Source: Octopus vulgaris (lineage: Eukaryota). From it: DNA of 64,000 bases. The stretch lies in assembly GCA_951406725.2 (NCBI GenBank), contig OX597817.1, positions 89,466,001 to 89,530,000 of the forward strand, given 5' to 3'. The position numbers were made by a program, and so were the translations under genes. The notes beneath the pieces are model-generated. The model did no database searches and was not told where the DNA came from. It worked only from the letters and a program-made list of their open reading frames with translations. Shown here piece after piece: positions 2,965 through 60,142 of this stretch. The number at the start of each line of letters is the position of its first letter. The first letter of the stretch is position 1.

Positions 2965-3338
2965 ATGTATTGTTATATTTGGGGATGGTTTATGTGTGGG
3001 AATAGCATACATATTCCCCCACACACTTACCAAACATAGACACATACAGGGATAAACGCATGCGCAATTAAAGTCACATACAATAGGAACACAAAATGAC
3101 AGACCGTTTGGAAGGAGAGACACAAAAAAGAAAGAAAGCAAAGGACAACTGATGAGGCCACAGAAGTGTTACGAAAGAACTTTTGCCGAAATACAATTAA
3201 TATGAAATAAAGCTGAAGCAATGAACACCAAATATATAGTGCGTGTGTTTTCATTGGCTATATTGGCAACATGACCCTCCCCATATACAACAACTGTTTC
3301 AACACAAGAGTTCACATCAGGAATCTTGCAAAACGAAT
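2965..3338 (+). mobile_element. Non-autonomous Penelope-like terminal element with decayed HHR-like core (3149-3191)
   Basis: CTGATGA-GGC...GCC-GAAA with internal hairpin; imperfect inverted ends (ttgttatatttggggatggt / accctccccatatacaacaa); terminal segment resembles 59325-59400; flanked by (TA)n; stems I/III not convincing. Confidence 0.45.
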
Positions 3339-4086
3339 ATATATATATGTGTGTGTGTGTGTGTGTGTGTGTGTGTGTGTGTGTGTGTGTGTGTGTGTGA
3401 ATAGACAGATAAATAGACGGAAAGATAGATAGATAGATAGATAGATAGATAGATAGATAGATAGATAGATATTGCGCATAAATGAGCTAAGAGAAATAAC
3501 CAAATATCATACAACATAAATTCTTGTTTATTGAATTTAATCTCCCTTCAAGAGGATGTGCTACAATTACTAAATGACAATTGACACCAGTGCCATATGA
3601 GAGGTGTCGATCATTGTTGATTCATGAGCTTATCTCTTCTGTAAAATCGATATACTATCTTCTCCGAAGTTGACATGCCATTAAGATAAAGGACACGTGT
3701 TTCTGCTTCAAGTGTCGACATCAGCACGACAATTCTTACGTATCTCTTACAGGCCAAATGACATAGACATATACACGAAGCGAAAAGCACATTGATTGCC
3801 TAAGGTACTTTGCATGTATTGAACATAAGTGAACTAAGAGAAAAAAGCGAAACTAAAAACTCAGAATAAGCAACACAGACTAAATACAGGTACATCAAAT
3901 ATTATGCAACAGAAATTCTTGATTGGTTAATACCATTTGTTAATAGTAACGCAACATATAAAGATAGAGTTAATTTTAATAAATCAAGACTTTATACTGC
4001 ATGGTAATTGATACATCTGTACTTCTCTCTCTCTCTCTCTCCCTCGCTCTCTCTCTCTCTCCATATATATATATATATATATATAT

Positions 4087-4570
4087 TAAGGTATGTAGAA
4101 AAATACAACATGGACAAGAACGTATAACTCTTAGAAGACGACACAATAAACACGGACAGGACATTCGAAACCCTCAGTCTTCAGTCAAGAACCGGATCAT
4201 CGTAGTAATTTCGGCTGATTAATCTTGAGATTACTAGATCACGGCCAGCCCTCCAAGAAAAACCAAGCAACGAGCATTAGAAAAACTAAGCTGGAAGCGT
4301 AGATTTCCTGGAAGAAGGATCGAATGCATACGAACACCAGGACAGCAAAAGGGACAGATATAAAAAAACAAAAAACAATAATGGAATACAGAAACATGAA
4401 ATACAGAAGCATTAACGGTGAAAACAACAGTGTCTTACGACTGATAACAAGCAAACAAATTTTTTCTCTGGCGCAATGGAAAAAGCCTTTATAGTGGCGG
4501 ACGAAAACAGCGATGTTAACACGACGAGGGTCAGAAGCTGAAAGGCAGATTTCGGCCAACAGTCACGTGA
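4087..4570 (-). repeat. Unclassified interspersed repeat, related to 19487-19787 (+)
   Basis: Shared segment (gtcc..gtttcgtat.cattcg..ctt.ttcc..gaaatcta) in the two loci; abuts (TA)n. Confidence 0.45.
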
Positions 4571-5662
4571 CAGAGAAGAGGGAAAAGAAAAGAAAGAGAA
4601 GCAAAGGAAGAGAGAGAGAGAGGAGGGACAAACGCAACAAAGAGAGAGAAGAGAGAGAAAGAAGGAATCAGAGAGGAGAAGGGATGGGTGTCGAAGAATG
4701 ACCTGTGAGTGCAGAGCGAGACAAAGAAATAGGAGGGTAGTGGAAGACTAGACCAAAGAATCAGAGGAAAGAGAAGAGAAAAAGAGGATGAGTAGAGAGA
4801 AAAGAGAGAGAGGGGGACAGATCAAGTAAAAATGAGAGAGAGAGAGACAAACAGAGAGTCGTACCAATTATTAAGAATATGTGCTCACATAAATGTTAAG
4901 GGGGGTACGATATATATGGTCTCCTCGCATCATTCCCCTTCTTCTCTCCCTTCCTCTTGCTCCTCCTCCCCCCTTCCCGTCGTCCACCCGCGACGATACT
5001 TCCGCCCTGACTGCTAACTGTCTTTCTCGCCTGGCCTTCGAGGCAACTGGACGACTTTTCCTGCTCTCTCGTCGTTCACAAAAAATTCTGCGTTTGCAAT
5101 ACTTTTTTCGTTCGGCGTCAATAGCCCTTCTTATCTTGTTTTCCCTGTCCTGTCTTTTACTGTTATATATATTTTTTTACTGTTTATATATTTTTTTACT
5201 GTTTTTTTACTGTTTATATTTTTGTACTGTCGTTACTGTCCTGTTTTTTTACCATTTTTTAACCATTTTTACCCCTCTGCGAAAAGATCTCAGAATTTTA
5301 ATTGATTTGCTTTTCGCAGGAAGGAAAGTTTCTTGTCGAAGATACGTCTCGCTTTTATCCTTCGAAACGTAGAGTAGATGAAACCTTAGCGACTGAAGAA
5401 GGGGTTTTTTCGTTGTGTTAATTGTCCTGTACTCCATTTTTTGTTGTTTTTAAAAAAATGTCCTGTTCCTTTGGTTTGTGTCTATGTTTTCGTTTCTCTT
5501 TGTGTTCGACGTCCCTTTGGTGTCCTGTACTCATATATGCGTGTATATGTACATGTAGAGGTGGTACGTACATATATGTTTATATATATGCATATGTTTT
5601 ATTTCATTTATTAATATATATATATATATATATATATATATATATATATATACATACACACA

Positions 5663-5870
5663 CGAAAGAATTTCCTGGTTTGGGGTAAAAGAAAATACAG
5701 GAGAATCAGTAATTGTGATTTTATTCAACATATTCCTCTCTCAGATTTCTACACTCATTGCAGCGGTCCTTCAGTTTTTCTAAGCCCTGTAAATGAACTC
5801 GTAAGGTTGGGCATCTAAGCAGGCTTTTTTGTGAATCCCTTAAAGCGAGGAACCTTTCAGCACTCCCTCG
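5663..5870 (-). mobile_element. Mariner-type MITE copy
   Basis: TIR TA|cgagggagtgctgaaaggttcc; body matches 29629-29844 and 39494-39648. Confidence 0.65.
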
Positions 5871-6379
5871 TACATACACATATATGAAAGAGAGAAAGAG
5901 AGAGAAAGAGAGAGAGAGAGAGAGAGAGAGGGAGAGTGAAGGAGAGAGTGAGATTCACATACACACATGTATGTGTATGTGTGTGTATATATATACGTAC
6001 ATACAAACACACACATACATACATACATACATACATACATACAAACATACATGCATACATATCTACACACACATACATATGTATATTTAATAAATGAAAA
6101 AATGTATAAACAACGTACGTAACGTATACTGAATGTAAAAGTGAAAGGGAGACAAACAGAAGATCCGTAATTCTTCATCAGTTATTGGTAATATTCAGTT
6201 TCACACATTTAATGATAAGACTGAATGCTTCCTAATTGGCGGTGCCCGCAAAAAAAATTTTTTTCTTGCGGAGAATTAGGGACAAGAGCAAACAAAACAA
6301 AGTAAAACAAAACAAGCATGTATGTATGTATGTATGTATGTATGTATGTATGTATGTATGTATGTATGTATGTATGTGA

Positions 6380-7145
6380 TGGATTGGATCTGTAATTTTC
6401 GAATTAGTTTTCTCCTTTCTGGTTTTCAGAAGTCTAGTTTTCTCAGGATTGGTATTTAGGCAGTGTGTTACATATCCAAGTGCACCAATAATTACAGGTA
6501 TAATCTGAACTTGTAATCTGGATAGGGTAACCGCAGATTCCTCAATAGCTGATCTTCAGCTTTATGCTAACAGCCGCTGGACAGTTACACCAGTCCTCCT
6601 TTTTATGTGTGTCAATGGCTTCTACCATACTGTGGGTTTTTATATCTTTGTCCTTGAGGTCATCCTTCCGACAGATTTCGTTATAAAGTATGCTAGTTAC
6701 AACATCATGTCTCATCGGTAGATAATAGCGTGATGACATTTTCGGACAACTGCTTATGATGTGGGTGATATCTTCGGTGTTAAATCCATAAAGTCTGCAT
6801 CGGCTGTCACATTTTACTACTTTTCCGGCATCCTTATCCCTTTTGTGTATCAGTTACTTGGTTAATATTTCCTGTTCCTGGATTGCAAACGCATACTCTT
6901 CAAAGCGCGAGGTAGTAATCCGACTTTTGGTCATGATAAACTGCTTTGATGATCGATGTTACTATCATCACGGAGCTTTCTGCTAACATATCCATGCATA
7001 ATCTTCTGCTCATAGAGGCTTATTCTTTGATCTGATGATACGTTGCGGTAGAGTCGTGCGACTTCTTTGGGCATGTATTCTAGTTTATCAGATAAAGAAT
7101 GTTGCTCAAGGAGCTGCCTTACAAGTCTTACGGTGTTATCAGCCT
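6380..7145 (-). mobile_element. R4/Dong-like (RLE) non-LTR retrotransposon 3' fragment, decayed
   Basis: Minus-strand translation shows CRL/…CP zinc-knuckle, YYLPMRHDVV and PVIIGALGYVT motifs typical of RLE C-terminus. Confidence 0.75.
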
Positions 7146-59258: not shown

Positions 59259-59324
59259 CTTCTAAAGCTGACTTTCGACATAAGTTCAATTTTATATACA
59301 TATATATTTATATATATACATAGA

Positions 59325-59692
59325 TTTTGTATCTGGTTTGCAAGATTTTTTATGCCAATTCGTGTGTTGAAGCGCATTTTGTTGTGCCTGGGAAGAGTCA
59401 TACTCTTTTAATGTCTTGTTATCTAACACACTTGCCGGTTCAATTTCCACTCATTATTTATGTATTTTTTCTTCTTCCAAAATTTTCGTTTCTTTTGCAA
59501 ACTTGTTAATAGATGTTGACTCCGTCCGCGCAGCTCTGATAACGGACAGAATCAACATCCATTAACAAGGTTGCTAATACAACGAAAATTTTAGAAGAAA
59601 AAACACACAAATAATAAATGAGTGGAAATTGGACCGGTGAGTGTGTTAGATAATAAGGCATTAAGACAGTAATACTCTCCCCAGACACACCA
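59325..59692. mobile_element. Fold-back element (~145-bp arms, 14-nt spacer) with decayed HHR-like motif in both arms
   Basis: 59384-59528 mirrors 59543-59690; CATCCA-TTAACAA-G-GTTG..CAAC-GAAA-ATTT-TAGAAG at 59556-59597. Confidence 0.7.
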
Positions 59693-59714
59693 ATATGTAT
59701 ATATATATATTTTT

Positions 59715-59895
59715 TTTTTCTCTCCTTCTTTCTGTGTTTTTTTTTCTCTCTCTGTGTATCTTTCTGTTGAAGAGCGTAGGCTCGAAACGTTAAAGACTTG
59801 TTTTATTTATATTTCCTGAGCGCCATACTAATACAATTGTTCGTTTGTTTTCCACCTGCCTTCGTCTTTTGTCTATTTTCATAAAGCTTCCCGTT
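59715..59895 (+). repeat. Short HHR-like repeat family copy (best preserved)
   Basis: TCTTT-CTGTTGA-A-GAGC GTAG GCTC-GAAA-CG-TT-AAAGA at 59759-59796. Confidence 0.65.
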
Positions 59896-59906
59896 ATATA
59901 TATATA

Positions 59907-60142
59907 TACCAAGGTTAGCACATAAATGTGAAACAAGTTGGGATAAAATAGTACTCGAATACCGGAATAAAACCGTACTCTAATACTTTTATTATTTAAA
60001 AAAACTGCAAAAACATTACATAAATATTTCAAAGAACTGCTTCTCAATCTAAACTGTCCGACAAATGGGAACGTAAAACTCTGAGTAGCAGTTTTTTTGT
60101 GATATTTTTGTGATGTCTTTGCAATTTTAATAATAAGGAAGT
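59907..60142 (+). mobile_element. Partially fold-back element with decayed HHR (60051-60094)
   Basis: AAACTGT-CCGACAA-ATG GGAA CGT-AAAA-CTCTGAG-TA-GCAGTTT; (TA)n both sides. Confidence 0.55.

What the first reader, a model, noticed from the sequence alone, without database searches (positions are those of the whole stretch)
2965..60142. Window-wide panel of unrelated (TA)n-embedded elements that all converge on a hammerhead fold
Seen: HHR architecture (stem I - 7-nt junction - stem II - GAAA - palindromic stem III - UH - stem I') in about ten sequence-unrelated short elements. Positions are 3149, 9362, 15014, 18933, 38955/59759/14314, 39209, 43572, the array, 49885, 50818, 59556 and 60051. 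Nearly all abut (TA)n, and many have inverted or partial-tandem ends. Inference: a large, diverse radiation of PLE-mobilised, (TA)n-targeting ribozyme elements that standard annotation would leave as unknown repeats, at roughly one motif per 4-5 kb here.
Basis: partly seen in the sequence, partly recalled or inferred. Interest (0 to 1): 0.8.

Follow-up and report, generated by a model that had tools for sequence, protein, structure and literature searches.

The report
Many hammerhead-bearing Penelope retroelement ends
This animal DNA really is sprinkled with many different copies of the small self-cutting "hammerhead" RNA motif, sitting near the tail ends of Penelope-type jumping-gene insertions in TA repeats; this is a published kind of arrangement, with a few unusual core letters worth a bench test.

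Summary
Mostly real, and mostly known. A type I hammerhead descriptor finds 12 loci (8 after merging five array units) against 1.1 in shuffles. 59556 regains a canonical core in its family majority (contigs of four runs), 60051 partly, 14314 and 3149 are decayed relatives, and 18933 and 43572 are unsupported. A (TA)n run lies within 300 nt downstream of 10 of 11 motifs (background 23%), but not significantly upstream. Several elements have inverted, 5'-truncated partners. One motif ends a broken Penelope-like RT/GIY-YIG gene, and one sits in a 593-bp tandem array (retrozyme-like). Best reading: 3' ends of Penelope-like elements or their non-autonomous derivatives, inserted into (TA)n. Many heterogeneous families per genome, U3-A8, the extra base after A9, the palindromic stem III, opposite-strand pairs and (TA)n bias are all published. 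Residual novelty: a very abundant family with U at core position 6, a G3-C8 copy, and no octopus-type catalogue found in my searches. Cleavage is untested. The scan noted similar motifs before on other genomes.

The parts
9362..9433 (-). Type I hammerhead, long stem II, G5 changed to A in this copy; inside element 9107-9817 with a partial tandem (9535-9696) and an inverted end (9696-9817), between two (TA)n runs
15014..15090 (-). Type I hammerhead with intact core, U-U opening of a long stem II, 6-nt palindromic stem III; inverted partner 15217-15365 carries only the 3' half
14314..14349 (-). Decayed copy of the U6 family
38955..38990 (+). U6-family hammerhead, 4-bp stem I, about 95 nt upstream of (TA)n
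59759..59796 (+). U6-family hammerhead (A6 replaced by U, extra base after A9, 4-bp stem II, CG palindrome); very abundant family
39209..39260 (-). Hammerhead with G3-C8 core; G12 is lost in this arm but present in the inverted partner at 39270-39381
44225..47250 (-). Tandem array of about 593-bp units (about 4.9 units plus a 105-bp internal duplication, about 99% identical), flanked by (TA)n; one intact-core hammerhead per unit (44409-44509, 45106-45206, 45699-45799, 46292-46392, 46884-46984) with a 70-nt stem II; retrozyme-like
47264..50086 (+). Broken Penelope-like element: RT (PF00078), CX4CX2C linker, start of GIY-YIG; in-frame stop near 48089, frameshift between 49007 and 49095, homology ends at about 49790-49874; ends at (TA)n 50087
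49885..49924 (+). U3-A8 hammerhead, 7-bp stem I, in the 3' flank of the PLE gene, 170 nt upstream of (TA)n
50818..50866 (-). Intact-core hammerhead 33 nt upstream of (TA)n; its minimum-energy fold prefers a competing 3' hairpin
59475..59514 (-). Left-arm hammerhead of inverted pair 59320-59697 (U3-A8 family)
59556..59597 (+). Right-arm hammerhead; the family majority restores G5 and a 5-bp stem II
60051..60094 (+). Probable hammerhead, 7-bp stem I; the family majority restores G12; this copy keeps C at position 4 and a C3/A8 mismatch
3143..3187 (+). Decayed C3-G8 motif whose 3' tail is related to the 59556 family (72% over 65 nt)
18933..18990 (-).
43572..43612 (-).

Best explanation
The motifs are the minimal type I hammerheads of Penelope-like element (PLE) terminal repeats. 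Each short element is the 3' end of a PLE family, or of a non-autonomous derivative; the 593-bp array is a non-LTR retrozyme-like concatemer. Inferred mechanism: a PLE RT/GIY-YIG protein of the Neptune/Nematis type nicks (TA)n, primes reverse transcription 30-260 nt downstream of the hammerhead, and often stops early or adds an inverted, 5'-truncated second copy. The hammerheads would cut only as dimers (palindromic stem III) or with protein help. Most genomic copies are decayed. Shown here: motifs above chance, directional (TA)n link, inverted/tandem geometry, one motif behind a PLE gene, family-level core restoration for one family. Inferred: mobilisation by PLE proteins, transcription, cleavage.
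For: Descriptor 12 loci vs 1.14 shuffled, 1 reversed. (TA)n within 300 nt downstream for 10 of 11 motifs vs 23% background, p about 4e-6; upstream 5 of 11, p 0.08. Inverted partners and partial tandems, as drawn for PLE copies in PMC8557442. RT with C-terminal GIY-YIG homologues and the Cys linker. Family majority restores G5 (72-82% of depth in 4 of 4 runs), stem II (65-95%) and G12 at 60075 (85-89%). Extra base after A9, G10.1-C11.1, palindromic stem III and U3-A8 match the published PLE consensus.
Against: Only 1 of the families is physically linked to a PLE gene, and that gene's endonuclease end is missing, so the link rests on contiguity. The short elements have no tblastn match to 120 PLE-like proteins. 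No within-family compensatory covariation was shown; three U6 copies show decay only. Several monomers do not fold into the hammerhead as minimum-energy structure. The U6 and 60051 families deviate at conserved core positions. Insert ends do not coincide with predicted cleavage sites. Descriptors were post hoc.
Confidence: 0.8

Rival explanations
1. The fold is kept as a protein-recognition or priming signal and not for cleavage; the most successful families have drifted at catalytic positions (U6, C4) while keeping the stems.
For: U at position 6 in 3 of 3 window copies that are only 73-77% identical to each other. Summed contig depth over this motif is about 2e6 in three of four runs, and in run X10 the motif bin stays high (2.2e6) while the tail drops to about 350. 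Hammerhead mutants did not block PLE insertion in vitro (PMC11167929). A change at A6 (A6C) gives low activity (PMC3088659).
Against: Most families keep or regain a canonical core, including N3-N8 pairing in three forms (C-G, U-A, G-C), which points to selection for catalysis. Position 59767 lies at the edge of a part the read tool skipped, so family-wide U6 is not confirmed beyond three copies.
Confidence: 0.15
2. The short inverted elements are MITEs or fold-back DNA transposons that insert at TA, and the hammerhead parses are incidental.
For: Long inverted arms and TA flanks are MITE-like; two sites do fail; one unlisted descriptor hit (56778) looks like chance.
Against: Arms are unequal, with one-sided extensions. 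The reversed-window control keeps hairpins but gives 1 hit. The family majority restores exactly the catalytic bases. The same motif follows a PLE gene.
Confidence: 0.05

Closest known systems
Minimal hammerheads (min-HHRs) of metazoan Penelope-like elements (Cervera & de la Pena 2014, PMC4209133; read parts 1-2 of 4 and part 2 of supplement file 2)
   Same: Type I fold, palindromic stem III, extra base between 9 and 10.1, U3-A8 variant, many heterogeneous families per genome, mostly single motifs, pairs on opposite strands 100-700 bp apart
   Different: No cephalopod among the searched supplement text (one file not searchable); U6, C4 and G3-C8 cores and 43-70-nt stem II extensions are not in the alignment I saw
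Animal non-LTR retrozymes (Cervera & de la Pena 2020, PMC7229834, passages; Li et al. 2026, 10.64898/2026.07.22.740005, parts 1-3 of 5)
   Same: Tandem non-coding units, one type I hammerhead each, low GC (35%); 593 bp lies within the reported 51-972 bp; proposed PLE origin
   Different: Stem II carries a 70-nt insert; no similarity to the adjacent PLE; circular RNA not tested
Neptune/Nematis-type EN+ PLEs and (TA)n bias (Craig et al. 2021, PMC8557442; introduction and passages)
   Same: C-terminal GIY-YIG with Cys linker, hammerhead near the 3' end, inverted 5'-truncated partner, one-sided tail, (TA)n as preferred target
   Different: Clade not fixed by a tree; this copy is broken and shows no 5' pLTR

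Membership tests
PLE-type minimal type I hammerhead | Core CUGANGA/GAAA/UH (N3-N8 paired) with stems I and II, above chance | tested here: met
   met for 8 of 14 named sites directly, 59556 via family majority; not met for 18933, 43572
PLE-type minimal type I hammerhead | Short palindromic stem III / loop 3 | tested here: met
   palindromic in 9427, 15085, 39253, 4 of 5 array units, 49892, 59764; small hairpin in 50860
PLE-type minimal type I hammerhead | Family consensus with compensatory covariation | tested here: inconclusive
   Majority letters restore core and stem II for one family; no paired covariation measurable; no genome held
PLE-type minimal type I hammerhead | Self-cleavage as dimer or with protein | not testable with these tools
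   Only contigs were available; no raw RNA reads
EN+ Penelope-like element (47264-50086) | PLE RT followed by GIY-YIG; Cys linker for Neptune/Nematis | tested here: met
   endonuclease truncated
EN+ Penelope-like element (47264-50086) | Pseudo-LTR at both ends | tested here: not met
   No self-match of the 3' flank at the 5' end; consistent with a truncated copy
PLE-derived short insertions | 3' end at (TA)n; inverted or partial-tandem partner | tested here: met
PLE-derived short insertions | Sequence shared with the 3' end of an autonomous PLE | tested here: inconclusive
   No match to the one PLE in the window; other PLE families unavailable
Non-LTR retrozyme (array) | At least two consecutive tandem units each with a complete type I hammerhead, non-coding | tested here: met
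   5 units; no ORF of 120 aa or more in the array
Non-LTR retrozyme (array) | Expression as monomeric circular RNA | not tested
   No reads were laid on the array

The most novel reading that the evidence does not exclude
This lineage carries an unusually dense, undescribed radiation of PLE-derived hammerhead elements in which very high-copy families have fixed core letters (U6, possibly C4, G3-C8) that should cripple or reroute catalysis. It would be a natural mutational series showing that the PLE hammerhead fold is maintained for protein-assisted cleavage or RT recognition, not for free self-cleavage.
Probability: 0.2. Interest if true: 0.55.

Novelty: new member of a known kind. Interest (0 to 1): 0.3.

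Why it matters
Practically, it gives a rule for classifying many short TA-flanked repeats that Rfam misses: a hammerhead 30-260 nt upstream of the (TA)n-abutting end marks a PLE end. The one octopus repeat annotation I read never mentions ribozymes (PMC13282606). Scientifically, the role of the PLE hammerhead is still open, and the core-variant families offer ready test cases. The phenomenon itself is published.

Tried and rejected
Rfam: 0 hits at gathering score; the 150 listed of 311 E-value hits were microsatellite-driven miRNA-type matches with no hammerhead, 161 not shown. No own genome held. Pattern scans for more copies: U6 family 0 in metagenome and viral contigs; SINE pattern 0 in genome contigs and 1 unrelated-looking animal contig in metagenomes. 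No PLE relative in genome contigs. No solved-structure match for the RT. No RNA holder listed among sequencing runs, which says nothing about expression. Alternative parse of the U6 family with the junction shifted by 2 nt was rejected because stems I and II collapse (by inspection). Other hairpin elements (42860-43240, 58663-59251, 14585-14796, 4088-5530) gave no convincing motif. Lunse et al. 2017 and Arkhipova et al. 2017 were not held; they and the closed bioRxiv supplements may already list these variants or this lineage. Literature searches with no report of an octopus hammerhead catalogue, natural A6U or natural G3-C8: (open-licence library only).

Full report
Setting. The window is AT-rich, microsatellite-dense animal DNA with SINEs and LINE fragments. 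Its repeats look octopus-like to me; that label is recalled and no call tested it. No whole genome is held. Rfam finds nothing at gathering score.

Are the motifs real? I wrote a type I hammerhead descriptor allowing any Watson-Crick N3-N8 pair, an optional base after A9 and a stem II up to 100 nt. With at most one core mismatch and stem I of 5 bp or more it finds 12 loci: 9427-, 15085-, 39253-, five array units, 49892+, 50860-, 59764+ and 56778-. The controls give 1.14 +/- 1.02 (max 4) in 100 block-wise dinucleotide shuffles and 1 in the reversed window. Merging the array leaves 8, still above every shuffle. A stricter version gave 10 against 0.4 and also caught 38959+ with a 4-bp stem I. Both descriptors were written after I had seen the sites. 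Best-fit parsing of every named site leaves 18933 with 4-5 core mismatches and 43572 without a convincing junction; I reject these two. 14314 is a decayed member of the 38955/59759 family. 3149 has a perfect junction, a damaged stem I and II, and a tail 72% like that of the 59556 family, in register. Among 12 motif-plus-tail segments only 3 pairs are similar, so about nine families are present.

Family test. I laid contigs of 4 of the 24 listed runs (four organism codes) on 59320-60141 at 80% likeness; 40 of 77 difference rows were shown. At 59564 (G5) the family reads G in 72-82% of depth in 4 of 4 runs. Positions 59575, 59578 and 59579 (65-95%) and 59491 in the other arm (84-94%) change so as to complete a 5-bp stem II. 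The 59556 family therefore has a canonical U3-A8 core, and the window copy is decayed. At 60075 the family reads G (85-89%), restoring G12; no shown row repairs C4 or the C3/A8 mismatch of 60051. The 59759 family is by far the most abundant: summed depth 0.6-3.5 million against 30-45 for contigs matching the window exactly in X1. The tool warns that this is no copy number. In run X10 the motif bin stays at 2.2 million while the tail falls to about 350. Its U at position 6 is shared by 3 of 3 window copies that are 73-77% alike, but that position borders a part the tool skipped, so the reads neither confirm nor deny it.

Geometry. For 11 motifs (3149, 18933, 43572 and the second 59556 arm left out), a run of five or more TA lies within 300 nt downstream of the predicted cut in 10, against 23% of background positions (p about 4e-6). 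Upstream it is 5 of 11 (p 0.08). Inverted, 5'-truncated partners occur at 9696-9817, 15217-15365, 39270-39381 and 59375-59697, and a partial tandem at 9535-9696. In 39209 the partner keeps the G12 that the main arm lost. Insert ends do not coincide with the cut sites.

The PLE and the array. 47264-50086 encodes a broken RT (PF00078). Its best homologues carry a C-terminal GIY-YIG domain and share a CX4CX2C linker, which marks the Neptune and Nematis clades according to PMC8557442. Homology ends at about 49790-49874. The U3-A8 motif follows at 49885 and (TA)n 170 nt later, the same layout as the short elements. Head to head with it lies a 99%-identical array of about 593-bp units, each with an intact core and a 70-nt stem II; it is not similar to the PLE.

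How it works. Shown: motif excess, polarity, inverted and tandem structure, one PLE link, one restored consensus. Inferred from the literature: a PLE protein nicks (TA)n and starts reverse transcription inside the RNA downstream of the hammerhead, leaving 5'-truncated and inverted copies; the hammerheads cut weakly, as dimers or with protein. PMC11167929 (passages) found a PLE hammerhead to be protein-assisted and dispensable for insertion in vitro. The 2026 retrozyme preprint saw cleavage in only 1 of 9 tested dimers. Most copies here are probably inert.

Comparison. PMC4209133 already reports thousands of motifs in several heterogeneous families per genome, U3-A8, the extra base, palindromic stem III and opposite-strand pairs. 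PMC8557442 gives the (TA)n bias and the inverted partners. Retrozyme units of 51-972 bp are described. Giant squid annotation lists 235 hammerheads (PMC6962438, passage). PMC3088659 (section 8 and passages) covers natural A6C and U4C. My searches found no octopus catalogue and no natural A6U or G3-C8 hammerhead. The paper on about the same class of variants by Lunse et al. (title seen in a reference list) was not held.

Verdict. A good observation of a known kind. Interest 0.3; the core-variant families are the part worth following.

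Noticed in passing
window 4088-5530: (TA)n-flanked non-coding element with partial hammerhead-like words near 5333-5375 (again U at position 6) and 5393; no complete parse
   Followed up: partly
window 42860-43240: Another long inverted pair between (TA)n runs, 83% arm identity, with palindrome-bearing half motifs but no accepted hammerhead
   Followed up: partly
window 14585-14796: Two 51-nt inverted ends facing each other across a (TA)n run
   Followed up: no
window 41190-42600: Rearranged repeats with a 151-aa frame (42143-42598, minus) that by eye resembles a Helitron/PIF1 helicase end (recalled); no Pfam hit
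   Followed up: partly
window 7800-8444: 173-aa minus frame that by eye resembles a mariner transposase remnant (recalled); no Pfam hit
   Followed up: partly
window 23190-28900: Nested LINE remnants between (AAT)n runs, one with a zf-RVT match (24051-24434)
   Followed up: no
window 58663-59300: Composite inverted/tandem element with tRNA-like segments
   Followed up: no
window 61974-62469: 184-bp tandem copies of a SINE that is frequent in the window
   Followed up: no
window 50800-50830: The sequence 3' of the predicted cut can form an 8-bp hairpin that competes with the hammerhead fold
   Followed up: partly
L001 6544-6568: A metagenome contig of animal-like DNA holds an exact 25-nt match to the window's SINE
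   Followed up: no
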